Shown: piece after piece, positions 5,141-58,174 of the stretch
How the letters are laid out: each line of letters opens with the position of its first letter
Numbering within the stretch: position 1 is the stretch's first letter
Source: a virus
Lineage: Duplodnaviria > Caudoviricetes
Reading direction: 5' to 3' (one strand)
DNA: 64,000 bases
Virus record (IMG/VR): IMGVR_UViG_3300028886_000037
Coordinates: 96,001-160,000 of that record
Notes under the pieces: model-generated
Databases searched by the model: none
What the model was told of the DNA's origin: nothing
What the model saw: only the letters and a program-made list of their open reading frames with translations
Program-made: the position numbers and the translations under genes

Positions 5141-6244
5141 CTAGTCTTCTTCCTCATCCACTTCTGGCGTATCTCCTCTCTGCGGCAGAGGAAGATCTTC
5201 TTTCACCTTAGCCAGTTCTAGCGCCTTGTACTGGTCGGGATAGCGTGTAAAATAGCGTCTCAGCTCTTCGATCGTGAACTTCTTTCGTCTCTTCAGGTAC
5301 ATTACGACGTCGTTGATGTCATTGATGTCTGTCGGAAGATTGTAGTCGAAGATGAACGAGCTCCACATGAAGACTGGTCGTCCCTGATTGACTCTCTTCC
5401 AAGCGTTCTTTCGTCCGCCCTTGTCGTTGTCGAAGATGAACCAGCAGTTCAAGTTCTTGAGCTTGTCATCGATCTCGCCAGAGGATCCAGCGCCGACAGT
5501 CGCCGTAGAGTTCTCGACGAACATGCTGTTGATCGGACCCTCTAGAACGGCGATTGGCTTCTCTTTGTCCACGAAGTCCCAGTTGTAGAGTGCAGTGCTT
5601 CCGACTCTAGACAGGTACTTGACGTCGTTGTCCTTGTCCAAGGTGCGCCCCTGGAAGAATTCGATCTTGCCGTCCTTGTCGTAGAACGGAATGATCACGC
5701 GTCCGCGATACTTGTCTTCGTCGCAGTAGTAGAACCGCTTCCAAACCTCTTCGGGAATCAAGCGGCTCTTGCAGAAGTGAATAGCAGCCAACTGGTACTT
5801 GCCAGGTTTGTCGATCTTCTTGAAGAATCGTGTCGCCTTGCGGTCCTTCTCGATAGCTCTCTGCAGGTCCTGCTTCTCTTTGATAAGGTCATCTGCTCTC
5901 TTGCGTTCGATAATAGCCTTCAGGGCATCGACTTCCTTCTTGTCTTTCTTTCCGTAAGACTTCAGCTCTTCGACATACTGGTCGTAGAGGCTCGAGTTGA
6001 CTTCCTTCAGCCACTTAGTAGCGAGAATTCCGTGATCAGCGCAACGGCAAGAGGCTCTCCAGCACGTATAGCACCAACGATAGGTGTTTGTGAGCCATAG
6101 AGTGCCCTTTAAGTCCTTGTCGCCGCAGAACGGACAGTTCACCTTGATCTCGCGTCCACGGCCCTTGTGGCGGACCGTATCGACTGCACGACGGATGTAC
6201 TTCTCTAGGACAAAAGTCTTTGTCTGGTCATCAACTTCGAACAT
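5141..6244 (-). CDS. DNA primase (T4 gp61-like)
   Basis: CPFCGD zinc finger, IIPFYD, FQGR, EGPIN, FDND toprim motifs. Confidence 0.92.
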   Translation of the reverse strand: MFEVDDQTKTFVLEKYIRRAVDTVRHKGRGREIKVNCPFCGDKDLKGTLWLTNTYRWCYTCWRASCRCADHGILATKWLKEVNSSLYDQYVEELKSYGKKDKKEVDALKAIIERKRADDLIKEKQDLQRAIEKDRKATRFFKKIDKPGKYQLAAIHFCKSRLIPEEVWKRFYYCDEDKYRGRVIIPFYDKDGKIEFFQGRTLDKDNDVKYLSRVGSTALYNWDFVDKEKPIAVLEGPINSMFVENSTATVGAGSSGEIDDKLKNLNCWFIFDNDKGGRKNAWKRVNQGRPVFMWSSFIFDYNLPTDINDINDVVMYLKRRKKFTIEELRRYFTRYPDQYKALELAKVKEDLPLPQRGDTPEVDEEED

Positions 6245-33648: not shown

Positions 33649-34359
33649 CTATGAGTTTTCTAAACCCTTAAATCTTGTAAAACCTCGATTTTTATATAGC
33701 TCGTTTCTCTCACTCATTCCTACATATTCCCACTGCAGCTTCTCGCCAGTCTTGGGATCGACTCCACAGTACTTCCTTTTGCCTTGACAGACGGAAGTTA
33801 TGTGAAATGCTTTGATATTGAAATATCTCTTCGCCTCACGAATTGAATCGAACACCTGTCCGGTCGTTATGCATCTGACTTTGCTCCAGATCTTCTCTTT
33901 CACCATCTTCTGCATCTTATCTCTGAAGACTTTGTTATTCCAGTTCTCTTTAGCAACTTCACTAGACCTTGCACGGCGATCTGGACGCTTATTGAACTCA
34001 ACAAAGTCCATTCCCCAATGATTTGCTTTAAGCTCTGCGGCAAATAGCTTCTTAGCATTCTCATACTCGTGAGCGCTGACTATCTTCTGGTATGGACTGT
34101 CTGCTTTCTTAGATCGGATTGACATCTGCCAGATCGCTGCATACATAGCTCTCGAAGGCCAAATCTTGCACAGCAGCTTGTGAGCGATGTAGTGCTCACG
34201 AGCAGTCAACAAGACAAGATTGTGCTTGTTTCTCTCATATTGAGGAAATAGTGATTTTGGGAATATGTGATGTTCTTCGAAGTACTCTTCTGAAGACTTT
34301 ATACGGTGCTTCGCTCTCGCAGAAAACACCAGACTGGTGTATATTGCTCTATAGTTCAT
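33649..34359 (-). CDS. HNH homing endonuclease
   Basis: EEHHIFP, NLVLLTAREHYIAH, C-terminal VRCITTGQVFDSIREA DNA-binding repeat; late promoter upstream. Confidence 0.88.
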   Translation of the reverse strand: MNYRAIYTSLVFSARAKHRIKSSEEYFEEHHIFPKSLFPQYERNKHNLVLLTAREHYIAHKLLCKIWPSRAMYAAIWQMSIRSKKADSPYQKIVSAHEYENAKKLFAAELKANHWGMDFVEFNKRPDRRARSSEVAKENWNNKVFRDKMQKMVKEKIWSKVRCITTGQVFDSIREAKRYFNIKAFHITSVCQGKRKYCGVDPKTGEKLQWEYVGMSERNELYKNRGFTRFKGLENS

Positions 34360-34472
34360 TTTTTACCTTTTAGGCCACCTTCAATGGCCGTATAGGTTAT
34401 TTATACACAAAAGGTAAGGGAGAGATAGAGCATCTCTCCCAAATGGTTGAAGGCCATCTGTCCCGTTTTTAT

Positions 34473-47520: not shown

Positions 47521-48210
47521 TTAATTTATAGAGGAGAGGGTGGGATTCGAACCCACGGAGGTTTCCTCCTCATATAATTTAGTAAAATCATTTCCATACT
47601 TATTTTCGACGTATTCTAAGTATGGCTTAATCTCTCTTTTCGTAATAATCGAAAGCTCTTTAGGAAATTGGTCATATTTTGCTTGCCACTGCTTAGACCA
47701 ATATCCCTTCAATTCAACATATTTTCCATCGACTATGAAGTCTGGAAGATAGTTATATTCTTTGCCTTCGAATATGTACTTAAACTTTTCTTTGTTCCTT
47801 TCGAATTTTATTCCGTGTTCAAGATTATATATCACGTATGCTAGTTCCCAAGAGCTGTCGCAGAAATATCCTTTATACCAACCCTTCTTTCCACGACCAG
47901 ATCCTTTACGATAGCCACCTAATGTGTGCCTAATCTTATTAGTCTCTTTTATCTTTTGTCGTGTTTCTTCCGTTTGGGCATGTTTCTTATATTCGACCCT
48001 TTCTGGATTCTTATAACATCTTTTTTCATGGAATCTCAGTGTATGCTTATATTCAAAATAGTTTCCGCAAAATTTACAATTTCCACCTTTATTAAATAGG
48101 AATTTCTTATGCTCTTTTTTATGATTTTCAGACTTATGTTTCTGAAGATCTCTTCTACTAGTACCGACATATTCACAGAATGAACATGGCCAAGTGTATG
48201 ATAATCTCAT
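47521..48210 (-). CDS. PD-(D/E)xK homing endonuclease inside tRNA-Ser
   Basis: Zn fingers; GWYKGYFCDSSWELA..YLPDF..YVELKG; C-terminus reads through tRNA T arm. Confidence 0.85.
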   Translation of the reverse strand: MRLSYTWPCSFCEYVGTSRRDLQKHKSENHKKEHKKFLFNKGGNCKFCGNYFEYKHTLRFHEKRCYKNPERVEYKKHAQTEETRQKIKETNKIRHTLGGYRKGSGRGKKGWYKGYFCDSSWELAYVIYNLEHGIKFERNKEKFKYIFEGKEYNYLPDFIVDGKYVELKGYWSKQWQAKYDQFPKELSIITKREIKPYLEYVENKYGNDFTKLYEEETSVGSNPTLSSIN

Positions 48211-48397
48211 ATTACTCTCTCAAAGAAGTAAAGCGGGTGTCCGATTCGAACGGACGAGAGGTTTTAACCTCTGCTTGGGTTCAGGCCAAGTGCGATAAAC
48301 CAACTCCGCCAACCCGCCATAAATTATTTATACAATCAAGACTAGTGCTTTTTGCCAGTTTCAAATCCGGATCCATAAACCACTCGGACACCTCTCC
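47532..48397 (-). pseudogene. Disrupted tRNA-Ser(TGA): 5' half 48355-48397, 3' half 47532-47568
   Basis: GGAGAGG...TT TGA AA and ...GTGGGTTCGAATCCCAC CCTCTCC T CTA; acceptor strands complementary. Confidence 0.85.
48231..48318 (-). tRNA. tRNA-Ser(TGA), replacement copy
   Basis: CTTGG-CC TGA AC-CCAAG, long V arm; C at position 33. Confidence 0.8.
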
Positions 48398-48714: not shown

Positions 48715-48762
48715 AGCTACCAGCAGGACTCGAACCTGCGAAGGGATGAACCCAGCAGATTA
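48715..48762 (-). pseudogene. 3' half of long-V-arm tRNA with U73 (probably Cys)
   Basis: AATCTGC-TGGGTTCATCCCTTC-GCAGGTTCGAGTCCTGC-TGGTAGC T CTA begins at endonuclease stop. Confidence 0.7.
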
Positions 48763-49374
48763 TAACAATTTACTGAGGATTCCCTCTATATAGGTTCGTT
48801 TAGCCTCTTTAGGAAGACGTTGGTATTCGGACCAATTACAGCGTCCTAATAGCGTCCATCCTTGCTCCTTTAAATTCTCTGTTCTTTCTTCATCATGTAA
48901 TTTTCCTTTTGATGTGTAATGCGTCTTGCCATCAACTTCAAAATAAAGCTTTTTATCAGGCCATGCAAAATCTAACCAATAGGGTTTTACATAATAGTTA
49001 TTTTCAAATTTTACGTTCTCATTTGTAAAAATGTTAAACCAACTTTGCTCAGCATAACTTCGTTTTCGTCTTCCTATCCATGAACTTGCGCGTCCTTCTC
49101 TATGTGCTTTTTTCATTCCGAGAGAAATTCTTTTGCATATAGCTTCGGTGTTTTTATGTCCTTTACATCGCAGCTTATTTGGATTCTTCTCGCAATGCAT
49201 TTCATGTCTAGTCATTTCACCACGAGTAATATGCTTGATTTTACCGCAGTATTTACATTTTAAATCATATTTAGGTGCTTGGCCATTTTTAATCTTATGT
49301 TCTTCGCTTTTATGCTTATAGAGCTTTCTACGTGATTCGATTTCAGCACCGCAATGTTCGCATACCCAAATCAT
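48760..49374 (-). CDS. DUF559/Vsr-like homing endonuclease
   Basis: SYAE, LDFAW, FEVDGKTH, D..R...L...GW; N-terminal Zn fingers. Confidence 0.85.
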   Translation of the reverse strand: MIWVCEHCGAEIESRRKLYKHKSEEHKIKNGQAPKYDLKCKYCGKIKHITRGEMTRHEMHCEKNPNKLRCKGHKNTEAICKRISLGMKKAHREGRASSWIGRRKRSYAEQSWFNIFTNENVKFENNYYVKPYWLDFAWPDKKLYFEVDGKTHYTSKGKLHDEERTENLKEQGWTLLGRCNWSEYQRLPKEAKRTYIEGILSKLL

Positions 49375-49396
49375 TTTTATTTCTCCATTTTAGCTT

Positions 49397-49484
49397 TATA
49401 GTCGTTCCAGCGACCATATTATTTATAGCAGTTAGAAGAACTGGAGATGTTCCTCAGCTGGCTGGAACCAGTTGTCCCACTATA
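49397..49484 (-). ncRNA. Three-way-junction + kissing-hairpin RNA around late promoter, copy 1
   Basis: Covaries with copy at 54255-54342. Confidence 0.7.
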
Positions 49485-49487
49485 GTA

Positions 49488-49575
49488 AGCGCTCAGTTGG
49501 ATTTGAACCAACGTGGAGATTTCTCTCAGCGGCTTTGCAGGCCGTGGTCTTCGACCAGGCTCGACCCATGAGCGC
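49488..49575 (-). tRNA. tRNA-Cys(GCA) with long variable arm
   Basis: CGGC-CT GCA AA-GCCG, U73, GAGA-GAAA-TCTC V hairpin. Confidence 0.85.
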
Positions 49576-49586
49576 ATATTGTTTAG

Positions 49587-49660
49587 TACTCCGTCCAAGA
49601 TTCGAACTTGGATCAAGGGCTTCGTAGGCCCGTATGCTGAGTCCATTACACCAACGGAGC
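49587..49660 (-). tRNA. tRNA-Arg(ACG)
   Basis: GGGC-CT ACG AA-GCCC. Confidence 0.9.
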
Positions 49661-49666
49661 ATAGTC

Positions 49667-49781
49667 AAGATAACGTCTTTTGAGCTGAGTCCTGAGCCAC
49701 TAGACGACACCGGTATACGCCGATGACTGGATTCGAACCAGTGTTGCAGCTTTGGGATAGTGAAGATGCTGTTGTTATCTT
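49667..49781 (-). ncRNA. Scaffold RNA carrying circularly permuted tRNA-Gly(CCC)
   Basis: AAGATAAC/GTTATCTT stem, ACAGCAT; TCCCAAAGCTG..T arm..CATCGGC precedes ACCGGTG..D arm..CAGCTC. Confidence 0.85.
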
Positions 49782-49785
49782 ATAG

Positions 49786-49868
49786 TCCTCCAGGAGGGAC
49801 TTGAACCCTCACGCCATTTCTGGCACCAGTTCCTAAGACTGGCGTGTCTGCGATTCCACCACCAGAGG
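49786..49868 (-). tRNA. tRNA-Leu(TAG)
   Basis: CCAGT-CT TAG GA-ACTGG. Confidence 0.9.
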
Positions 49869-49872
49869 ATAG

Positions 49873-49945
49873 TGCCACCCCTCCGTAACGATCGGAGATC
49901 CTCGGATTTTCAGTCCGTTGCATAGACCATCTTTGCTAGAGTGGC
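49873..49945 (-). tRNA. tRNA-Phe(GAA)
   Basis: CGGA-CT GAA AA-TCCG; atypical T loop ATCGTTA. Confidence 0.85.
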
Positions 49946-49951
49946 ATAATC

Positions 49952-50007
49952 GAGATTCTTTTGTTTCTTAACCAAAAAGAAGATTTTAGAGTTGCTGTAA
50001 GAACCTC
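49952..50007 (-). ncRNA. Minimal ACAGCAA-scaffold RNA with one 5-bp/7-nt stem-loop
   Basis: GAGGTTCTT/AAGAATCTC; TTCTT-TTTGGTT-AAGAA. Confidence 0.75.
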
Positions 50008-50011
50008 TTAG

Positions 50012-50085
50012 TCGGCAACCTTGGACTTGAACCAAGAACCTCTGCCTTATCAGAGCAGTGCTCTAACCAATTGAGCTAGATGCCG
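50012..50085 (-). tRNA. tRNA-Ile(GAT)
   Basis: CTGCT-CT GAT AA-GGCAG. Confidence 0.92.
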
Positions 50086-50097
50086 ATAAAAAATTTC

Positions 50098-50165
50098 AAG
50101 ATCCATTTTTCTAACGTAGTCTGATTACCAATCGGATGTTATAAGAATTTTGCAGTTAGGATCTT
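50098..50165 (-). ncRNA. Scaffold RNA (ACTGCAA) carrying isolated Thr(GGT) anticodon arm
   Basis: AAGATCC/GGATCTT; TCCGA-TT GGT AA-TCAGA. Confidence 0.8.
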
Positions 50166-50211
50166 TAGTAGTCTCCGATCAGGGATTCGAACCCCGGACC
50201 TGAAACTTTTA

Positions 50212-50285
50212 TCTTCGACCTAGGACTTGAACCTAGAACATCCGTCTTGTAAGGGCGGCGCTCTAACCAATTGAGCTAGCCGAAG
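50212..50285 (-). tRNA. tRNA-Val(TAC), replacement copy
   Basis: CCGCC-CT TAC AA-GACGG; overlaps endonuclease 3' end. Confidence 0.88.
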
Positions 50286-50919
50286 TTACGAACGATTTAA
50301 TTGATGAAATTGCCTCTGAAGTATTTCTCATTATGTACTTCCAAGTCAATCTCAGACATTTCCAACCGTTCTCTTTGCAATAAGTGTCTTTTTCGACATC
50401 CATTGCTTTTCTGCTGGGCCATTCATGTTGAGATCCATCAATTTCCAGATAGATCTTTAATTCTGGCCAAGCAAAATCCATGAACCATTTGCCAAAATGA
50501 TATTCTTCAACAAATGGAAAATTAGAAAGCTCCGTTTCGAGTAACCTCTTTGTCCATTCTTCAGCATAAGATCTTTTACATTTACTTCTCGACGACCACC
50601 AGATTCCGCCATTTTCTTTTATCTGTTTCTTACGAATTTCAGATAGCTTCTTCTTTGTGGCTTCAGTATGTTTAGATCCCAAGCGTAAGGCATTTTCGCC
50701 TGAATACCTTTTGCTAAAAGTTTCACTTGCTTGTTTTACTCTCGGATCATTATCCTTAGTTAGTCCTTTGTTCCAAGAAGGATGAGATTTAGAAAAGCCG
50801 TGTTCATCTTTGTGATGTTTCTGGAGTTCTCGTCTCGTTCTACCAACGAACGGACAATACTTGCAGCACCAGTCACCAGATGCGTTTTTCTGTTTTCTCT
50901 CTTTCTCATATCTTCCCAT
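50263..50919 (-). CDS. DUF559/Vsr-like homing endonuclease
   Basis: SWNKGLTK, HTEATKKKLS, SYAE, MDFAW, LEIDGSQH, GWKCLRL.W. Confidence 0.85.
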   Translation of the reverse strand: MGRYEKERKQKNASGDWCCKYCPFVGRTRRELQKHHKDEHGFSKSHPSWNKGLTKDNDPRVKQASETFSKRYSGENALRLGSKHTEATKKKLSEIRKKQIKENGGIWWSSRSKCKRSYAEEWTKRLLETELSNFPFVEEYHFGKWFMDFAWPELKIYLEIDGSQHEWPSRKAMDVEKDTYCKENGWKCLRLTWKYIMRNTSEAISSIKSFVTSASSIG

Positions 50920-50975
50920 ATTTTATTTATAGGAAGGATGGCACTCTGAACCAGCTGAGTTAACCGGAGAGATAG

Positions 50976-51049
50976 TGCCCCACCAAGGACTTGAACCTTG
51001 AACTCTCTGCTTAAGAGGCAGATACTCTAACCAATTGAGTTAGTGAGGC
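50976..51049 (-). tRNA. tRNA-Lys(CTT)
   Basis: TCTGC-CT CTT AA-GCAGA. Confidence 0.92.
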
Positions 51050-51055
51050 ATATAG

Positions 51056-51128
51056 TTCCGGTAGCAGGGATCGAACCTGCGACTTTCTCCGTATGAAGGA
51101 GATGCTCTACCAACTGAGCTATACCGGG
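51056..51128 (-). tRNA. tRNA-Met(CAT)
   Basis: TCTCC-TT CAT AC-GGAGA; C1:A72 mismatch. Confidence 0.88.
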
Positions 51129-51199
51129 GGGAAATCCACTGGCAGTTTGTGAGATACTGCCTAAACTCCTGAGGGCTACCTCAGAAAGCTAAAAGATAC

Positions 51200-51269
51200 G
51201 AGATAGAGTGGCCTTGCGCCACGAAACCGCATGATGGAGCAGAGGGGTGAAACTTGCTGTGTCTATCTC
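51200..51269 (-). ncRNA. ACAGCAA-scaffold RNA, short cargo with GCAA-loop hairpin
   Basis: GAGATAGA/TCTATCTC-G stem. Confidence 0.7.
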
Positions 51270-51277
51270 AAATTTAG

Positions 51278-51351
51278 TAGCGCCATCGGGACTCGAACCC
51301 GAATTTCCGACTTGAAAGGCCGGTGAACTGAACCAGTTATTCGATGGCGCC
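51278..51351 (-). tRNA. tRNA-Glu(TTC)
   Basis: CCGGC-CT TTC AA-GTCGG. Confidence 0.9.
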
Positions 51352-51357
51352 AAAAGC

Positions 51358-51464
51358 GAGATACGTTCTTTGTGTATAGCCCATCTGACTTTCGTCAGAC
51401 TTGCAGCTTTTCAGCTTATGGATTCGAACCACTTACAGTAAGAAATCATTGCTGTTTGTATCTC
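51358..51464 (-). ncRNA. ACAGCAA-scaffold RNA with T arm + two GAAA hairpins
   Basis: GAGATAC/GTATCTC; GTGG-TTCGAAT-CCAT, AGCT-GAAA-AGCT, TCTGAC-GAAA-GTCAGA. Confidence 0.8.
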
Positions 51465-51478
51465 TTTTTCAAATGTGT

Positions 51479-51621
51479 CAGATACGGCGGATTCGAACCG
51501 CGATCTCAGACGTTGCGACATCTGGGACTTTTTGCACCGTCTCCACGACGGGACCGAAGCTACCTGCTTGTCAGAAGAGATAGAGTTCGCAACCTCTAAA
51601 ACTTCCTATCGGTACATATCC
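51479..51621 (-). ncRNA. Enlarged tRNA-like RNA (acceptor + T arm, expanded interior)
   Basis: GGATATG/CGTATCT acceptor, GCGG-TTCGAAT-CCGC, ~110 nt multi-hairpin interior. Confidence 0.6.
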
Positions 51622-52414
51622 TACGCTTAGTAGCGGGACCGGGACTAGAGTCCCGGTCAGAAATGCTAAAACTTTCTTGAATTTTGATAGTCTGTAATAA
51701 TCTGAAAATTTCGTTTTCTCTTTCAATTTTAGAAAGTTTTTGAAATTCAGACCATCTAATTCTTTTTAAGAGCATCCAACCGTTTTCTATTAAAAATTCC
51801 GTTCTGATCTTGTCGTGTTCGATACCTTCTTTAGTATAGTGCTGTTCTCCATCAACTTCAATGTATATTTTTGATTTAGTCCATGCAAAATCTAAAGTAT
51901 ATCGGCCAACTTGATGTTGAGTTTCGGCATCTGTAAATATAGTTTCAAAATACTCTTCAGCATAAGATTTTCTTTTGTTTAACCAATTACAGTGTGTACC
52001 GCTAAGATTTTTAATAGCTGCATCTGATAATTTCCTTTTAGTTTCATCCGAAGTTTTATGACCTTGCCAAATTTGCTTATTCGGATTTTCTTTACAAAAC
52101 TTTTCGTGTCTTGTTAAATCGCAAGCTCTTTTATAAATTAAACCACAGAATTGACAAGGTATGTTTAAATCTGGATGATAGCCATAGAATTTACCTTTGA
52201 TTTCGTTAATATGTCCTTCTTTGCGATGCTGTTGTAATCTACTTCGTGAATGAAAATCATTGCCACAAATTGAACATTTCCAAATTTTAGAATTCTTTTG
52301 TATTCCTCTATTCGGATTTTTAAGACACTGCTTAGAAATGTGTGTTCCTAATTGTGCCCCAGTAGTAAACTCCATGTTACAAAATTTACATATATGTTTT
52401 ATTTCCAATTCCAT
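51596..52414 (-). CDS. DUF559/Vsr-like homing endonuclease inside an initiator-tRNA remnant
   Basis: Three Zn fingers, SYAE, LDFAW, IEVDGEQH; probable start MELEIKH after TATAAATA. Confidence 0.85.
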   Translation of the reverse strand: MELEIKHICKFCNMEFTTGAQLGTHISKQCLKNPNRGIQKNSKIWKCSICGNDFHSRSRLQQHRKEGHINEIKGKFYGYHPDLNIPCQFCGLIYKRACDLTRHEKFCKENPNKQIWQGHKTSDETKRKLSDAAIKNLSGTHCNWLNKRKSYAEEYFETIFTDAETQHQVGRYTLDFAWTKSKIYIEVDGEQHYTKEGIEHDKIRTEFLIENGWMLLKRIRWSEFQKLSKIERENEIFRLLQTIKIQESFSISDRDSSPGPATKRRICTDRKF

Positions 52415-52448
52415 ATAGTATTTATAACATGAGCTAACCACTGCTCTA
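51631..52448 (-). pseudogene. Disrupted initiator-type tRNA-Met: D arm 52431-52448, T arm/acceptor remnant 51631-51657
   Basis: TAGAGCAGTGGTTAGCTC and ACCGGG-ACTCTAGT-CCCGGT-CCCGCT A CTA. Confidence 0.65.
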
Positions 52449-52453
52449 AATTA

Positions 52454-52537
52454 TAGCGGGAGCCAGAGTCGGACTGGCACAAGCATTATCTGTCCCTGGG
52501 TTATGAGCCCAGTATCTTACCATTAGACTATCCCGCG
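52454..52537 (-). tRNA. Initiator-type tRNA-Met(CAT) with long variable region
   Basis: C1 mismatch, CTGGG-CT CAT AA-CCCAG, 17-nt V region. Confidence 0.8.
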
Positions 52538-52544
52538 ATAATAG

Positions 52545-52619
52545 TGGACCGTAAGGGAATCGAACCCTTGACATCCAGCTTGCAAAGCTGGCGCTCTACC
52601 AAAACTGAGCTAACAGCCC
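52545..52619 (-). tRNA. tRNA-Ala(TGC)
   Basis: G3:U70; CCAGC-TT TGC AA-GCTGG. Confidence 0.92.
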
Positions 52620-52624
52620 GAAAG

Positions 52625-52677
52625 AATCTGTGAATGGCTCTGACCTCGAAAGGTTCTCCGTACTTACATCACAGATT
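52625..52677 (-). ncRNA. Structured RNA, TGATGTAAGTA family copy 2
   Basis: AATCTGTGA/TCACAGATT stem, ACCT-TTCG-AGGT hairpin. Confidence 0.55.
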
Positions 52678-52681
52678 TTAG

Positions 52682-52754
52682 CTGTCCCACCTGGACTCGA
52701 ACCAGGGACGGGGTGATTAACAGTCACCTACTCTACCAACTGAGCTATGGGACA
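52682..52754 (-). tRNA. tRNA-Asn(GTT)
   Basis: GGTGA-CT GTT AA-TCACC, G73. Confidence 0.92.
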
Positions 52755-52758
52755 TTAA

Positions 52759-52855
52759 AGATAAAGCCGAAGATTTCAATATGCAGATCGGATTCTCGAT
52801 CCAGATCTTTTTTGTTTGATTCTAATATAGAAACTTCTTTCGGGTTTGTAAACCC
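52759..52855 (-). promoter_or_regulatory. Promoter + hairpin/boxA-like leader of tRNA operon
   Basis: GGGTTTAC..TATATT, AGATC hairpin, TGCATATTGAAA, TTCGGCTTTATCT. Confidence 0.7.
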
Positions 52856-52894
52856 TCTTTCTCAGAATTTTTTGAGAAAGTTGTTTATTTATAG

Positions 52895-52967
52895 CTCCCT
52901 GTGGACGACTTGAACGACCGACATCGAAATTACAAATTTCGCGTTCTACCAACTGAACTAACAGGGA
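52895..52967 (-). tRNA. tRNA-Thr(TGT)
   Basis: CGAAA-TT TGT AA-TTTCG; U1-A72, G73 body. Confidence 0.85.
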
Positions 52968-52977
52968 ATAAGAGCGC

Positions 52978-53043
52978 TGAGGATATGAGTGAAAAGCTAT
53001 CTCGAGTTCACAGTTCATCGGATATCCTCTCTAAGCATCCTCA
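52978..53043 (-). ncRNA. Structured RNA, GTGAAYTCGAGATA family copy 2
   Basis: TGAGGAT/ATCCTCA closing stem; shares GCT(C)TAGAGAG and GTGAAYTCGAGATA with 46357-46450. Confidence 0.5.
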
Positions 53044-53052
53044 TCTTCACGT

Positions 53053-53128
53053 GATCGACGAGTGGATTGGAACCACCGCACCAGGCCCCGAATGGGCCTG
53101 CGCTCTACCATGCTGAGCTACGAAGATA
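53053..53128 (-). pseudogene. tRNA-like element with extended anticodon stem
   Basis: D and T arms normal; CAGGCCC-ATTCG-GGGCCTG; mismatched acceptor. Confidence 0.6.
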
Positions 53129-53156
53129 CGTCCTTGAATTCAGACGCTTAGATTAG

Positions 53157-53240
53157 TGGGTAAGGTAGGATTCGAACCTACTAAGCCCGAAGGCAACGGC
53201 TTTACAGGCCGCCCCAACTCACCATCGTTGGCGCTTACCC
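53157..53240 (-). tRNA. tRNA-Tyr(GTA)
   Basis: GCGGC-CT GTA AA-GCCGT, long V arm. Confidence 0.9.
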
Positions 53241-53244
53241 TTGT

Positions 53245-53528
53245 ACGGCCGGTCATTTATAGTCTTGTGACCGAAGACTTTACCCAACTCACGCTTATGC
53301 CGTTATTTTTCGCGATAGAACCATCACATGTGATGGTAGAATCGAATTCAAGATTCCAGCGGCCTGGTCAGGATGCTTATGCCTATGCTCTCCCCTGACT
53401 CCTTCACAGCCTTCGTCCGCTTGTCTATACGGACTTCTGCTGATCAACCAGTAAGCGCCCTTCCATTGGATCCAATTGACGGCGAAGTAGCGCTCAATGT
53501 AGCGGCCTTTGCAAGGATGGCGACTCCA
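53245..53528 (-). ncRNA. Candidate structured ncRNA with 3' H-type pseudoknot
   Basis: AGTCTT-CGGTCAC-AAGACT-ATAAA-TGACCG; other hairpins; no credible ORF. Confidence 0.5.
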
Positions 53529-54230
53529 CTATTGCCAGAGTCTCTCCTTCAATTCATAGCGGGACCGATGGGATTCGAACCCACAGCCTCCAGCCTTATT
53601 TTCATAAAGCATTTCTATTCGTTCAGTCCCGTATTTTTTATAAACGTACTCTAAATACTTTTTCATCTCTCTTCTATATAGGACGATTAACGGATATTTG
53701 AAAGTTCTTAATTTTTCCTCCCATCTATTATTTCTACGTCCTTTTATTTCATAATATGTATCGCCTATTTTAAAATCAGGATAGTATTTATGGATTTCTC
53801 CATTGCTTACATATTCAAAGCCTATTTTATTTCTCTCAAATTCTATTCCGTGATCTAAATTATAAATTACGAAAGCTAATTCCCAACGTGAATTGCAATA
53901 AAAGCCTTTATACCATCCAGAATAAATAGTACCAGATTTTTCTCTATAACCACCGCATCCAGCAGCTTTAGAAGTCTCTCTTAACTTCTCTTTTAATTCG
54001 TCCGTCATTCTATGCTTTCTATAGCAATCTTTACAAAATCCGGTCGAATTACGATTATCTAAAGATTTTCCGCAGTCTTTACAAAATCTCTTTTCAGTTT
54101 TTGAAAATAGTTTTGATAGTCTTCTCTTTAGTTCTTCTGTTCTTATTCTGCTATTAGCGCATGCTCTTGAGCAGAATCTTCCGCTTCCAAAAGAGCCATC
54201 ATGCTCTTTTCCACATTTTTCGCAGATCAT
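53529..54230 (-). CDS. PD-(D/E)xK homing endonuclease reading into tRNA-Asp 3' half
   Basis: GWYKGFYCNSRWELA..YYPDF..YYEIKG; paralogue of 47521..48210. Confidence 0.85.
   Translation of the reverse strand: MICEKCGKEHDGSFGSGRFCSRACANSRIRTEELKRRLSKLFSKTEKRFCKDCGKSLDNRNSTGFCKDCYRKHRMTDELKEKLRETSKAAGCGGYREKSGTIYSGWYKGFYCNSRWELAFVIYNLDHGIEFERNKIGFEYVSNGEIHKYYPDFKIGDTYYEIKGRRNNRWEEKLRTFKYPLIVLYRREMKKYLEYVYKKYGTERIEMLYENKAGGCGFESHRSRYELKERLWQ
53560..53594 (-). pseudogene. 3' half of tRNA-Asp
   Basis: GCTGG-AGGCT-GTGGGTTCGAATCCCAT-CGGTCCC G CTA; Asp identity inferred from acceptor and G73. Confidence 0.7.
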
Positions 54231-54254
54231 ATAGCCTCTTTTAACTTTATTTTA

Positions 54255-54342
54255 ACGAGGATCCTTCCATATCCTCGTATTATTTATAGAGGTTAGATCG
54301 AATGGCGAATTCGATCAGGAGGTGGAAGCCTCTTGTCCCTCT
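54255..54342 (-). ncRNA. Three-way-junction + kissing-hairpin RNA around late promoter, copy 2
   Basis: Covaries with copy at 49397-49484. Confidence 0.7.
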
Positions 54343-54348
54343 TTTTAA

Positions 54349-54422
54349 CGATGCCGGCGAGATTCGAACTCGCGTATGTCGGTTAGACAGACCGATGTGT
54401 TAGGCCACTTCACCACGGCACC
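54349..54422 (-). tRNA. tRNA-Asp(GTC), replacement copy
   Basis: TCGGT-CT GTC TA-ACCGA, G73. Confidence 0.9.
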
Positions 54423-54428
54423 AGAGAC

Positions 54429-55289
54429 GAGATAGTTTTTCTTACGCGCTCTACCAGTTGAGCTACCTCACAGCATGGCTGCAAGGACGTTAAAATACAC
54501 ATCTCAATAATATCTTCCTATTAGTAATTTATCAGAACTAAAAGCCGATGAATTACAAATATATTCTTTATATTTTGGTATATAACACTTAAATAATCTT
54601 ACAATTTCTGGCAAAAGAGGAATGTTTTCTAATTTTGCAAATTCTCTAATTGACTTATAATTTCCAGAATGGAAATAGTCCCATAATTCCCTTGCTCTAT
54701 TAAATGCACTTATTTTACTTTTGTTAAAGAGTATACTATTTTCTCCTCTAAATAGATTTCTTCCAAGAACCCAATCCTTATTAGGTAAAATTTTGAATTT
54801 TTTGCATTCTCCATTGATTCTATTCGTATACCATTTAGTTCCGTATTGTGAATTTTTATTTCCTTTTTGTTTCAATTTCATACTTTCAGAAACGTATTTT
54901 GCAAATTCTGTTCTAAGCTTTTCGTATGCTCTAGAATTCATATAACGACTCTTATCTTCTGTAGGATGTCCTCTCATCCTCCAGAAGGCATACATCATTT
55001 TTCTTCTCTCATCTGTTCCCTTCTTGAATATCTTTACCAATAGCCAATGACAGAGGAAATGCTCTCTAGCAGTCAAAGGAACTAAGTTATCACGTTGATC
55101 CGATCCTCCTAAAGAACTAGGAAGAATATGATGTTCTTCATAATAACCTTCCGGTTTTCCTCTTATCTTTGCCCTATATACTATTTTCAGATAAACTTTT
55201 CTATAATCCATGTATTATTTATACATTTCATATCTCGAACCCGCAACATCGGTCTTAACAGGACATTTGAGAGTTGCTGTAACTACCTC
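54429..55289 (-). ncRNA. ACAGCAA-scaffold RNA carrying permuted tRNA-Asn(GTT), interrupted by an HNH gene
   Basis: GAGGTAGTT/AACTATCTC stem; GTC-CT GTT AA-GACCG..GCGGGTTCGAG | HNH | CCTTGCAGC-CAT-GCTGTGAGG-D arm. Confidence 0.8.
54504..55211 (-). CDS. HNH homing endonuclease
   Basis: EEHHILPSSLGG...NLVPLTAREHFLCH; paralogue of 33649..34359. Confidence 0.88.
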   Translation of the reverse strand: MDYRKVYLKIVYRAKIRGKPEGYYEEHHILPSSLGGSDQRDNLVPLTAREHFLCHWLLVKIFKKGTDERRKMMYAFWRMRGHPTEDKSRYMNSRAYEKLRTEFAKYVSESMKLKQKGNKNSQYGTKWYTNRINGECKKFKILPNKDWVLGRNLFRGENSILFNKSKISAFNRARELWDYFHSGNYKSIREFAKLENIPLLPEIVRLFKCYIPKYKEYICNSSAFSSDKLLIGRYY

Positions 55290-56986: not shown

Positions 56987-57019
56987 AAGATCTCCAAGTT
57001 TTTAGTGTTGTATTTATAG

Positions 57020-57091
57020 TGCGGGTGGCGGGGTTCGAACCCACGACTCGAAGATTAAAATTTAGTACTCTACCAACTGAGTTACACCCAC
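57020..57091 (-). pseudogene. tRNA-Lys(TTT)-like gene with unpaired anticodon stem
   Basis: Acceptor, D, T arms intact; CTAAA cannot pair with TCTTC. Confidence 0.7.
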
Positions 57092-58091: not shown

Positions 58092-58098
58092 AAATTAG

Positions 58099-58174
58099 CT
58101 GGGAAGGCAGGATTCGAACCTGCGATTTCTAGGGCATTACAGTGCCGTGGCATACCAGACTTGCCGACAACCCA
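58099..58174 (-). pseudogene. tRNA-like gene with 6-nt anticodon loop (CTGTAA), Asn/Gln-type body
   Basis: GGCA-CTGTAA-TGCC; U1-A72, G73; mismatches in acceptor. Confidence 0.6.

What the first reader, a model, noticed from the sequence alone, without database searches (positions are those of the whole stretch)
49397..54342. Covarying three-way-junction/kissing-loop RNA upstream of two unrelated endonuclease genes
Seen at 49397-49484 and 54255-54342: P1 (TATAGTGG/CTGCTATA; AGAGG/CCTCT), GACAA, P2 (CTGG/CCAG; GAGG/CCTC), CT, P3 (GAGGAAC/GTTCTTC; GATCGAA/TTCGATC), TAA, then TATAAATA and a hairpin whose loop (CTGGAA; TGGAAG) complements the P2 loop (TTCCAG; CTTCCA). G-U pairs fix the minus strand. 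In copy 1 the P3 loop (TCTCCA) complements the RBS TGGAGA. Known: T4 endonuclease genes are silenced in early transcripts by RNA structure that late promoters bypass. Inference: an elaborate translational switch, or a ribozyme acting at the 3' end of the replacement tRNA just upstream.
Basis: partly seen in the sequence, partly recalled or inferred. Interest (0 to 1): 0.7.

Follow-up and report, generated by a model that had tools for sequence, protein, structure and literature searches.

The report
Kissing-loop leader RNA of homing endonucleases
Three selfish DNA-cutting-enzyme genes of this uncultured cattle-gut phage each begin with the same uncatalogued folded RNA leader, widespread in phages, whose loops pair with a downstream hairpin and with the gene's ribosome-binding site. 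It therefore most likely keeps the nuclease untranslated on long read-through transcripts, until a late promoter inside the leader makes a shorter message.

Summary
Both copies (49484-49397 and 54342-54255, minus strand) fold into the described three-way junction (3WJ) followed by TATAAATA and a hairpin, P4, whose loop complements the P2 loop. A third, divergent copy lies at 34470-34373, before an HNH endonuclease gene.

I collected 58 distinct relatives from viral, metagenome and genome collections:
- All three stems covary (87% of cells paired; covariation score 0.64 against 0.19 for shuffles).
- 50 of 58 have a P4 loop that exactly complements the P2 loop, using 31 different loop sequences.
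- The P3 loop, or the 3' strand of P1, complements the Shine-Dalgarno or start-codon region far more often than chance (0 of 2000 permutations).
- 33 of 40 downstream ORFs are nucleases of several unrelated families.

Rfam has no match, and ten model phages, including T4 and Aeh1, lack the motif.

Best reading (about 0.6): a modular translational lock that acts on read-through transcripts and is bypassed by the internal late promoter. The principle is the one known from I-TevI, segB and mobE, but the conserved RNA architecture is new. The tRNA-3'-end ribozyme idea is not supported: 34 of 58 copies have no tRNA nearby. Catalysis or ligand sensing by the conserved junction is not excluded.

This scan has already flagged the same kind of leader in at least eight other genomes.

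The parts
49424..49484 (-). Copy W1, three-way junction. P1 49484-49477 pairs with 49431-49424. J12 (the strand joining P1 to P2) is GACA(A), 49476-49472. P2 is 49471-49458, with loop UUCCAG. J23 (joining P2 to P3) is CU. P3 is 49455-49435, with loop AUCUCCA. J31 (joining P3 back to P1) is UAA.
   Evidence: Sequence; minimum-energy fold; covariance models R1 at 70 bits and R2 at 66.5 bits.
49420..49427 (-). W1 internal T4-type late promoter box TATAAATA. It overlaps the 3' strand of P1. The late transcription start is inferred to lie about 6 nt downstream, inside the 5' arm of P4.
   Evidence: There are 18 TATAAATA boxes on the minus strand of the window and none on the plus strand. The start-site distance comes from established T4 knowledge and was not measured here.
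49397..49418 (-). W1 hairpin P4 (UAUGGUCG-CUGGAA-CGACUAUA). Its loop is the exact complement of the P2 loop.
   Evidence: A natural variant in run X4 changes a C-G pair to U-G in this stem.
49372..49387 (-). W1 translation initiation region. The SD sequence UGGAGA (49387-49382) is complementary to the P3 loop UCUCCA. The AUG is at 49374-49372.
48760..49374 (-). W1 downstream gene: a 204-aa endonuclease with a zinc finger and a DUF559/Vsr-like domain.
   Evidence: Pfam PF04480, E 9e-9.
54288..54342 (-). Copy W2, three-way junction. P1 54342-54338 pairs with 54292-54288. J12 is GACA(A), 54337-54333. P2 is 54332-54319, with loop CUUCCA. P3 is 54316-54296, with loop UUCGCCA. J31 is UAA.
   Evidence: R1 at 72.5 bits and R2 at 72.8 bits.
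54281..54288 (-). W2 internal late promoter box TATAAATA.
54255..54278 (-). W2 hairpin P4. Its loop contains UGGAAG, the exact complement of the P2 loop CUUCCA.
54228..54240 (-). W2 translation initiation region. The SD sequence AAGAGG lies at about 54240-54235 and the AUG at 54230-54228. The SD repeats the 5' strand of P1, so the 3' strand of P1 (CCUCU) can pair with it (5 bp). In the relative L128, the P3 loop UAGCC pairs with GGCUA at -6..-2.
53529..54230 (-). W2 downstream gene: a 233-aa putative endonuclease. It is unrelated to the W1 enzyme and has no Pfam hit.
   Evidence: PHROG 29037 'endonuclease', E 6e-5; BLASTP against the W1 protein, E 0.25.
34407..34470 (-). P1 34470-34463 pairs with 34414-34407. 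J12 is GACA(G). P2 is 34457-34443, with loop CCUUCAA. P3 is 34440-34418. J31 is UUA.
   Evidence: R1 with filters off at 24.4 bits, E 1e-5; R2 at 47.7 bits; sequence.
34373..34405 (-). W3 TATAAATA (34405-34398) and hairpin P4 (34389-34373). The P4 loop UUGAAGG is the exact 7-nt complement of the P2 loop.
33649..34371 (-). W3 SD region AAAAGG (34371-34366), complementary to the 3' strand of P1 (CCUUUU), followed by a 236-aa HNH-type homing endonuclease gene (33649-34359).
   Evidence: PHROG 655 'homing endonuclease', E 9e-33.

Best explanation
The element is a portable 5' leader of about 110 nt that belongs to free-standing homing endonuclease gene (HEG) cassettes.

**On long transcripts that read through from upstream genes or tRNAs (inferred mechanism):**
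- The three-way junction (3WJ) folds.
- Its P2 loop forms a 6-7 bp loop-loop 'kiss' with the downstream hairpin P4.
- This holds the junction next to the translation initiation region (TIR).
- The P3 loop, or in some copies the 3' strand of P1, then pairs with the Shine-Dalgarno (SD) sequence or the start codon and blocks 30S ribosome binding.

**On short transcripts (inferred):**
- A promoter lies between the 3' strand of P1 and P4. In this phage and 21 other family members it is the T4-type late box TATAAATA.
- It makes a transcript that lacks the junction.
- The ribosome site is then free, and the nuclease is made only late in infection.

**Shown here:**
- the fold and the covariation of its stems
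- the P2-P4 loop complementarity
- the complementarity of the P3 loop, or the 3' strand of P1, to the TIR
- the position of the promoter box
- the association with nuclease genes
- the location of the leader inside the mobile cassette

**Inferred:**
- that these pairings form in vivo
- that they block translation
- that the box fires as a promoter at this site
For: **The fold**
- On 28 distinct sequences, 87% of cells are paired and 16 of 19 pairs change on both sides. The covariation score is 0.637, against 0.188 for shuffles and at most 0.21 for slid controls (one search gave the same on the first 11).

**The P2-P4 kiss**
- 50 of 58 distinct members have a downstream hairpin whose loop is the exact 6-7 nt complement of the P2 loop.
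- These use 31 different loop sequences.
- After permuting partners, a mean of 2.5 and a maximum of 8 of 58 match.
- The pairing is kept even where a tRNA gene sits between the junction and P4 (L350, L232).

**The anti-TIR pairing**
- The P3 loop complements positions -22..+15 around the start codon in 32 of 50 members (at least 5 nt) and 20 of 50 (at least 6 nt).
- Shuffled or permuted controls give about 12-15 and 3-5. None of 2000 reach the observed values.
- The paired sites span -16 to +14, which is within the ribosome footprint.
- The 3' strand of P1 is also enriched: 13 of 50 with at least 6 nt, against about 3-5 expected.

**The promoter position**
- TATAAATA lies between the 3' strand of P1 and P4 in 22 of 58 members, with near matches in 9 more. 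It typically ends 1-5 nt before P4.
- The window has 18 such boxes on the gene strand and none on the other.

**The gene association**
- 33 of 40 downstream ORFs hit nuclease or HEG families: HNH, GIY-YIG, DUF559/Vsr-like, EndoVII-like and others.
- The window's own genome has three copies, all in front of HEGs.

**Part of the mobile cassette**
- DNA contigs of related cattle-gut phages skip 48759-49583 and 53595-54414. Each skipped stretch holds a HEG, its leader and the adjacent tRNA.

**Natural variation respects the fold**
- A strain variant turns both G.U pairs of W1 P1 into Watson-Crick pairs and changes a C-G pair to U-G in P4.

**Precedent for the logic**
- PMC2988022.
Against: - No expression data exist. 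The only RNA-library evidence is assembled contigs, which cannot show starts, ends or levels.
- A simple hairpin is enough for this job in T4 and Aeh1. The near-invariant junction nucleotides (GACA, U, G-C, U-N-A) and the elaborate kiss are more than the model needs. They hint at an extra function such as protein or ligand binding, or catalysis.
- The anti-TIR pairing is short (5-7 bp). It is absent or weak in about a fifth of members. W2's own P3 loop matches only 4 nt, and W3's matches none.
- In W2 and W3 the anti-SD segment is the 3' strand of P1. This cannot pair with the SD while P1 is formed, which implies alternative folds rather than one static lock.
- 27 of 58 members lack a recognisable TATAAATA. 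Their internal promoter is only assumed from AT-rich, -10-like sequence.
- The search patterns fixed several junction bases, so the junction conservation and the A.C/G.U correlation are partly built in by how members were found.
Confidence: 0.6

Rival explanations
1. The junction is a small self-cleaving ribozyme, or a recognition structure for a host RNase. It would cut the HEG message away from the upstream tRNA or gene transcript, with P4 docked through the kissing loop in the manner of a substrate helix.
For: - About 10-12 highly conserved nucleotides sit in the junction, surrounded by covarying stems and a tertiary loop-loop contact. This is the typical look of small ribozymes (alignments).
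- 20 of 58 copies start 0-15 nt after the 3' end of a tRNA.
- Cleavage would insulate host-gene or tRNA transcripts from the selfish gene.
Against: - No Rfam ribozyme family matches, even at E up to 10.
- The hammerhead core is not present. There is only a 'CUGA', and its GA is paired and covaries (A-U to G-C or C-G).
- 34 of 58 copies have no tRNA within 400 nt, and two lie upstream of a tRNA.
- Cleavage does not explain why the P3 loop tracks each gene's own SD or start codon.
- RNA-library contigs run uncut through both leaders (weak evidence).
Confidence: 0.1
2. The junction is a sensor: a riboswitch-like aptamer, or the binding site of a conserved host or phage protein. Binding would shift the balance between the folded junction and an alternative fold in which the 3' strand of P1 pairs with the SD. 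Nuclease translation would then respond to a signal, not only to which promoter made the transcript.
For: - The junction nucleotides are conserved between phages whose stems share no sequence.
- In W2, W3 and about a quarter of members, the 5' strand of P1 mimics the SD region and the 3' strand of P1 is anti-SD. This is the layout of translational ON-switches such as the add adenine riboswitch (the comparison rests on established knowledge).
- The pair next to P2 keeps wobble geometry (A.C, G.U or U.U, never G-C), as in specific tertiary folds.
Against: - There is no candidate ligand or protein.
- The nucleases belong to unrelated families, so self-regulation by the encoded enzyme is unlikely.
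- The middle base of J31 varies (A, U or C).
- Conservation is inflated because the search patterns fixed these bases.
- The internal promoter already gives a sufficient switch.
Confidence: 0.15
3. The structure mainly serves mRNA stability or insulation. It could act as a 5' or 3' protective fold for the HEG message or the upstream tRNA precursor, or as a barrier to ribosomes coming from the upstream ORF. Any effect on initiation would be incidental.
For: - P4 would sit at or near the 5' end of the late transcript.
- The stable junction directly abuts tRNA 3' ends in a third of cases.
- An A-rich linker, UAAA(A)UAAAG(G/U)UAAAA, is conserved after P4.
Against: This does not explain the partner-specific complementarity of the P3 loop to each gene's TIR. 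Nor does it explain the strict P2-P4 loop matching.
Confidence: 0.1

Closest known systems
RBS-sequestering leader structures with an embedded late promoter in T-even-type homing endonuclease genes: I-TevI, I-TevII, I-TevIII, T4 segB and Aeh1 mobE (PMC2988022; Gibb and Edgell 2009, as cited there)
   Same: - It lies in the 5' leader of a homing endonuclease gene.
- A sequence upstream of a TATAAATA late promoter complements the ribosome-binding site.
- Transcripts from the late promoter lack the inhibitory part.
- The presumed purpose is the same: restrict a selfish nuclease to late infection and to low levels.
   Different: - Those are simple, phage-specific hairpins with the SD in the stem.
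- This is a conserved three-way junction with near-invariant junction bases.
- A covarying 6-7 bp loop-loop kiss links it to a separate hairpin.
- The anti-TIR segment sits in a loop, or in the 3' strand of P1.
- Model R2 finds nothing in T4 or Aeh1.
- This family spans many unrelated phages and at least four nuclease families.
Hairpins and two conserved sequence motifs in the 5' UTRs of endonuclease genes in metagenomic 'fractured gene' loci (Dassa et al. 2009, PMC2677866)
   Same: - They lie in the 5' UTRs of free-standing HEGs, including Vsr-like/DUF559 ones, in uncultured phage-like DNA.
- 10 of 16 carry TATAAATA.
- Conserved motifs were noted that pair within a hairpin.
   Different: - They were described only as hairpins predicted by RNAfold.
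- No three-way junction, kissing loop or covariation analysis was reported.
- The motif sequences are in a supplement that is not held. I could not tell whether they are the same element.
add adenine riboswitch and other purine-type three-way-junction aptamers
   Same: - A three-way junction whose P1 helix competes with pairing to the SD.
- A loop-loop tertiary contact.
- Translational control.
   Different: - In those RNAs the kiss is between P2 and P3 of the same junction, and the junction strands are longer and different.
- No Rfam purine-family match was found.
- No ligand is known here.
Hammerhead and other small self-cleaving ribozymes
   Same: - A three-way junction with conserved junction bases and a distal loop contact.
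- Frequent in phage and mobile-element DNA.
   Different: - The hammerhead core (CUGANGA...GAAA...UH) is absent, and the junction strand lengths differ (4-5/1-2/3 nt against 7/3/1).
- No covariance-model match was found.
   Same: A small orphan RNA motif associated with mobile DNA.
   Different: RF02996 gives no match at E up to 10 in the window's own genome. It also gives no match in nine other family members.

Membership tests
T-even-type RBS-sequestering HEG leader with late-promoter bypass (I-TevI/segB/mobE kind) | Lies in the 5' leader of a homing endonuclease gene | tested here: met
   W1, W2 and W3 all directly precede nuclease ORFs. 33 of 40 family ORFs hit nuclease or HEG families.
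T-even-type RBS-sequestering HEG leader with late-promoter bypass (I-TevI/segB/mobE kind) | A segment complementary to the SD or start codon lies upstream of the late promoter | tested here: met
   P3 loop against the TIR: 32 of 50 with at least 5 nt, and 0 of 2000 controls reach this. The 3' strand of P1 against the SD is also enriched. W1 has 6 bp, W3 has 6 bp, and W2 has 5 bp.
T-even-type RBS-sequestering HEG leader with late-promoter bypass (I-TevI/segB/mobE kind) | A late promoter (TATAAATA) lies between the inhibitory segment and the SD | tested here: met
   All three window copies have it, as do 22 of 58 family members, plus 9 near matches. Promoter activity itself was not tested.
T-even-type RBS-sequestering HEG leader with late-promoter bypass (I-TevI/segB/mobE kind) | A simple stem-loop with the SD inside the stem; sequence or structure homology to the T4 and Aeh1 elements | tested here: not met
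   The architecture here is a three-way junction plus a kissing hairpin plus loop-to-TIR pairing. Model R2 finds no match in T4, Aeh1, KVP40, T5 or FelixO1, nor in five further model phages.
T-even-type RBS-sequestering HEG leader with late-promoter bypass (I-TevI/segB/mobE kind) | Translation repressed on early or middle transcripts and relieved on late ones | not testable with these tools
   Only assembled contigs of an RNA library were available.
Any Rfam 15 family (including hammerhead, twister, twister-sister, pistol, hatchet, HDV-like, purine, int-alpA RF02996) | Covariance-model match at or near the gathering score | tested here: not met
   No hit overlaps W1 or W2 at E up to 10, nor nine relatives. 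At W3 the only overlap is RF02527 at 25.5 bits against a cut-off of 80. RF02996 is absent from the window's own genome.
Small self-cleaving ribozyme | Site-specific self-cleavage | not testable with these tools
   Needs an in vitro transcription and cleavage assay.
Riboswitch | Conserved ligand pocket with a specific ligand, and a ligand-dependent change in the expression platform | not testable with these tools
   A conserved junction and competition between P1 and the SD are present in some copies, but no ligand is known.
Kissing-loop leader RNA of phage homing endonucleases (uncatalogued family, noted earlier by this scan in other genomes) | Multi-helix leader in front of HEGs, with one hairpin loop exactly complementary to a downstream hairpin loop, and covariation between copies | tested here: met
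   All three window copies meet this, as do 50 of 58 relatives, with 31 different loop sequences. Identity with the earlier-noted elements is judged from their descriptions only, not by alignment.

The most novel reading that the evidence does not exclude
The near-invariant core of the three-way junction (GACA / wobble pair / U / G-C / U-N-A) may be an active site or a ligand or protein pocket. That would make it a new class of small ribozyme or riboswitch-like sensor, carried by homing endonuclease cassettes across many phage lineages. The kissing hairpin would serve as docked substrate or expression platform. Nuclease expression, and so the mobility of the cassette, would then be tied to RNA cleavage or to a cellular signal, not only to the choice of promoter.
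Probability: 0.15. Interest if true: 0.9.

Novelty: new variant of a known kind. Interest (0 to 1): 0.66.

Why it matters
- **A possible shared control module.** Homing endonucleases are among the commonest selfish genes in phages, and how they avoid harming their carriers is known only from a handful of T4-type hairpins. This leader may be a common control module that has been overlooked. One conserved RNA architecture serves HNH, GIY-YIG, Vsr-like and other nucleases in unrelated uncultured phages, often several times in one genome.
- **A rich natural data set for RNA structure.** The leader carries over 30 different loop sequences for one kissing contact, and a loop-to-ribosome-site pairing that is rewritten for each gene. 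This makes it a natural, addressable translational lock, with clear value for structural work and RNA design.
- **Use in annotation.** A covariance model of the leader would flag HEG cassettes and their 5' boundaries in metagenomes. That includes cassettes that invade tRNA clusters.
- **If the junction is catalytic or ligand-binding.** It would be a new class of functional RNA.

Tried and rejected
- **Cultured relatives.** Megablast of 7 kb against cultured phages gave only a tRNA hit. The DNA ligase is at most 31% identical to any cultured phage. blastn with a leader gave only noise.
- **Model phages.** Model R2 found no credible match in T4, Aeh1, KVP40, T5, FelixO1, EFDG1, Twort, SPO1, A511 or rV5. 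The best hits were 11-13 bits at E above 0.3. I therefore could not name a culturable host system.
- **Loose search pattern.** The first loose pattern scan gave mostly chance hits. These were removed with a stem filter, which separated scores of 12 or more from scores of 10 or less, with only one locus at 10.
- **RNA evidence.** One metatranscriptome holds the region, but only as assembled contigs. No starts, ends, strand or levels can be read, and it is undecided whether the material is RNA or DNA.
- **Literature.** Five full-text searches found no description of this fold. The Dassa 2009 motif figure and supplement are not held. The supplements of the 2023 viral structured-RNA catalogue are not held.
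- **tRNA remnant or tRNA-like idea for the junction.** Rejected: it has three arms, gets no tRNA model hit, and most copies are far from tRNAs.
- **DNA-level (cruciform or target site) idea.** Rejected because G.U pairs and the loop complementarities work on the coding strand only.
- **A caveat on my own statistic.** The A.C/G.U correlation next to P2 is partly built into the two search patterns. Only the roughly 15 copies found by covariance model alone are unbiased.

Full report
**1. The observation**

- Copy W1 spans 49484-49397 and copy W2 spans 54342-54255.
- Each has P1, a junction strand GACAA, and P2 (a 4-bp stem with a 6-nt loop). Then come CU, P3 (which starts G-A and ends U-C), UAA and the 3' strand of P1.
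- The T4-type late box TATAAATA follows, overlapping the 3' strand of P1. After it comes a hairpin, P4.
- The P4 loop is the exact complement of the P2 loop: UUCCAG/CUGGAA in W1 and CUUCCA/UGGAAG in W2.

ViennaRNA returns this three-way junction plus P4 as the minimum-energy and centroid fold for both copies, with z-scores of -2.2 to -3.1 against dinucleotide shuffles. The sequence skeleton occurs twice in the window and never in 100 shuffles. G.U pairs in P1 and P3 of W1 fix the folded strand as the minus strand, which is the coding strand.

The two downstream proteins are unrelated (BLASTP E 0.25). W1 precedes a zinc-finger plus DUF559/Vsr-like enzyme. W2 precedes a protein with only a weak PHROG 'endonuclease' hit.

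**2. A third copy, and what the genome is**

A covariance model built from the first relatives (R1) was run over the window without filters. It found a divergent third copy at 34470-34407, and the refined model R2 scores it at 47.7 bits.

- W3 lies between a DNA ligase-like gene and an HNH homing endonuclease gene.
- It has the same layout, with altered junction bases: GACAG, UU and UUA.
- It has its own TATAAATA (34405-34398).
- Its P4 loop UUGAAGG is the 7-nt complement of its P2 loop CCUUCAA.

The whole 247.9-kb virus record holds just these three copies.

The phage is uncultured, and the runs that hold it are bovine gut metagenomes. Its ligase is at most 31% identical to that of any cultured phage. 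It uses TATAAATA as a strand-specific signal, with 18 boxes on the gene strand and none on the other. It carries 37 or more tRNA genes interspersed with endonuclease genes.

**3. A wide family**

I scanned IMG/VR, metagenome contigs and GTDB genomes for two skeleton patterns. I filtered the hits by stem formation and then by covariance model. Extra copies were picked up in the flanks and full records of the hits. This gave 58 distinct cores.

- On 28 distinct sequences aligned to the model, 87% of cells form standard pairs.
- 16 of 19 pairs change on both sides.
- The covariation score is 0.637, against 0.188 for shuffles and at most 0.21 for slid partners.
- The second pair of P3 changes from A-U to G-C or C-G. 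The 'GA...UC' is therefore helical and is not a hammerhead-like CUGA turn.
- The base before P2 and the base after it occur as A.C, G.U or U.U, and never as G-C. This suggests a wobble-geometry pair. The statistic is partly built into my search patterns, so only the roughly 15 copies found by model alone are unbiased.
- Phage records carry one to four copies each.

**4. The kissing loop**

- In 50 of 58 members a downstream hairpin of 4-10 bp has a loop that is the exact 6-7 nt complement of the P2 loop.
- These use 31 different loop sequences.
- After permuting partners, a mean of 2.5 and at most 8 of 58 match.
- Close relatives show single compensatory changes, such as UUGAUG/CAUCAA against UUGACG/CGUCAA.
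- In L350 and L232 a whole tRNA gene sits between the junction and P4, yet the loops still match: UUGCUG/CAGCAA.

This is as strong as comparative evidence for a tertiary contact gets.

**5. Pairing to the ribosome site**

- The P3 loop complements the region from -22 to +15 around the start codon in 32 of 50 members (at least 5 nt) and 20 of 50 (at least 6 nt).
- Loop shuffles give about 12 and 3, and partner permutations give about 15 and 5. None of 2000 trials of either control reach the observed values (on the first 25).
- The paired sites run from -16 to +14. They cover the Shine-Dalgarno (SD) sequence in some genes and the start codon in others. The loop therefore tracks each gene's own initiation region, not a generic anti-SD sequence.
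- W1 has UCUCCA pairing with UGGAGA.
- The 3' strand of P1 is also enriched for complementarity to the SD region: 13 of 50 with at least 6 nt, against about 3-5 expected.
- This P1 pairing is the main anti-SD pairing in W3 (CCUUUU:AAAAGG) and W2 (CCUCU:AGAGG). In both, the 5' strand of P1 literally repeats the SD region.
- W2's relative L128 has UAGCC in the P3 loop, pairing with GGCUA at -6..-2. W2 itself carries a point change that weakens this pairing.

**6. The promoter inside the leader**

- TATAAATA lies between the 3' strand of P1 and P4 in 22 of 58 members, with near matches in 9 more.
- The rest have AT-rich, -10-like strings at the same place.
- The box usually ends 1-5 nt before P4.
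- In T4 the late start site lies about 6 nt past the box. This is established knowledge and was not measured here. Late transcripts would therefore begin at or just inside P4. They would lack P1, P2 and P3, and with them both anti-TIR (translation initiation region) segments.
- This is the logic shown experimentally for I-TevI and proposed for I-TevII, I-TevIII, segB and Aeh1 mobE (PMC2988022).

**7. Association with endonuclease cassettes**

- Of 40 downstream ORFs tested, 33 hit nuclease or homing endonuclease families: HNH, GIY-YIG, DUF559/Vsr-like, EndoVII-like and others. One is a helicase and six have no nuclease or homing-endonuclease hit.
- The same nuclease family occurs with different leader variants or with no leader. 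One leader variant serves different nucleases within one genome, so leader and ORF are shuffled.
- DNA contigs from other cattle-gut samples join 48758 to 49584, and 53594 to 54415. They therefore lack the HEG, the leader and the adjacent tRNA. This places the leader inside the mobile insertion. These are contig joints with 39-63 nt sides, so the evidence is of moderate weight.
- A strain variant in the same data changes W1 P1 from GUGG/CUGC, with two wobble pairs, to GCAG/CUGC, all Watson-Crick. It also changes a P4 pair from C-G to U-G. Both changes respect the fold.

**8. The tRNA and ribozyme idea**

- Twenty of 58 copies begin 0-15 nt after the 3' end of a tRNA of twelve different identities. 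This fits nucleases that home into tRNA clusters.
- However, 34 of 58 have no tRNA within 400 nt, and two sit upstream of a tRNA.
- No ribozyme model matches.
- Contigs from an RNA library run through both leaders, but they may derive from DNA.
- Self-cleavage or RNase recognition remains untested.
- The tight conservation of the junction is the one feature the simple lock model does not need.

**9. Novelty**

- Nothing in Rfam 15 matches.
- Model R2 finds nothing credible in ten HEG-rich model phages, including T4 and Aeh1. The classic hairpins are therefore not members of this family.
- Five full-text searches found no description.
- The nearest prior notice is Dassa et al. 2009, who saw hairpins, TATAAATA and two conserved motifs in the 5' UTRs of metagenomic endonuclease genes. 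The motif sequences are not held, so identity cannot be judged.
- This scan has noted leaders of the same description in at least eight other genomes. Those are unchecked AI notes, not independent support.

**10. Verdict**

The finding is a real member of a widespread, strongly covarying, uncatalogued RNA leader family of homing endonuclease cassettes.

- **Most likely (about 0.6):** a transcript-isoform-specific translational lock. The regulatory principle is known, but the conserved architecture is new.
- **Ribozyme or RNase-processing function:** about 0.1.
- **Sensor function (ligand or protein):** about 0.15.
- **Mainly mRNA stability or insulation:** about 0.1.

Noticed in passing
L172, L146 (copy at 5282-5343), L350 (copy at 1727-1793); possibly L141 (copy at 649-710): The endonuclease ORF behind the leader stops after 33-48 codons and continues for 163-241 codons in the +1 frame. 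In each case the break is one extra C in front of GGA or GGT at a conserved glycine, followed closely by a 0-frame TGA (CAT C GGA ATT GA; GGT C GGA ATT GA; AAT C GGT GA). The same context recurs in independent contigs. It could be a programmed +1 frameshift, quadruplet decoding or decay.
   Followed up: partly
window 50919-50935 and 55211-55225 (minus strand): Two other endonuclease genes of this phage (ORFs 50263-50919 and 54504-55211) have no leader and no Shine-Dalgarno sequence. Instead, TATAAATA ends 4-6 nt before the ATG. A late transcript would be leaderless or nearly so. This may be a second way to restrict these nucleases to late transcripts.
   Followed up: no
L350:2773-2990 and L232:2047-2270: A tRNA-Thr gene sits between the junction/TATAAATA and the P4 hairpin of the leader. 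The order is therefore junction, promoter, tRNA, P4, endonuclease, and the P2 and P4 loops still match.
   Followed up: partly
L010, L413 (two copies), L422, L138, L442, L155: A subclass of the leader has no P4 hairpin. In it the start codon follows the junction by only about 20-30 nt. In five of the seven copies the P3 loop pairs 6-7 nt with the SD region or the sequence just upstream of the start codon. In three of the seven copies (two different sequences) the P2 loop is a palindromic 6-mer (UGGCCA twice, UAGCUA), which might allow pairing between two RNA molecules. L155 precedes a DEAD/ResIII helicase gene, not a nuclease.
   Followed up: no
window 48759-49583, 53595-54414, 54482-55233, 47559-48358: DNA contigs of related cattle-gut phages lack these stretches. 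Each holds an endonuclease gene, and the first two (48759-49583, 53595-54414) also hold the adjacent tRNA gene and the leader. The 53.6-54.4 kb case is replaced by 32 other bases, and a weak tRNA-like match lies at 53560-53630. This fits cassettes that split a tRNA gene and bring a replacement.
   Followed up: partly
window 57019-57091, 58098-58174, 49488-49575: The tRNA cluster includes three oddities. One is a predicted suppressor tRNA with anticodon UUA. One is a tRNA-like gene with an irregular anticodon loop (ARAGORN 'tRNA-???'). One is an 88-nt tRNA-Cys directly upstream of leader W1.
   Followed up: no
L417:7229-7400 (553-kb viral contig): The endonuclease ORF behind this leader copy has an in-frame TAG after 16 codons. 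This may reflect stop-codon recoding in that very large phage.
   Followed up: no
linker after P4 in most family members (in the window: 49396-49388, 54254-54241, 34372-34360): An A-rich linker with the consensus UAAA(A)UAAAG(G/U)UAAAA lies between P4 and the SD sequence. It is conserved between otherwise dissimilar leaders, and its role is unknown. It could be an S1-binding or enhancer site, or part of the fold.
   Followed up: no
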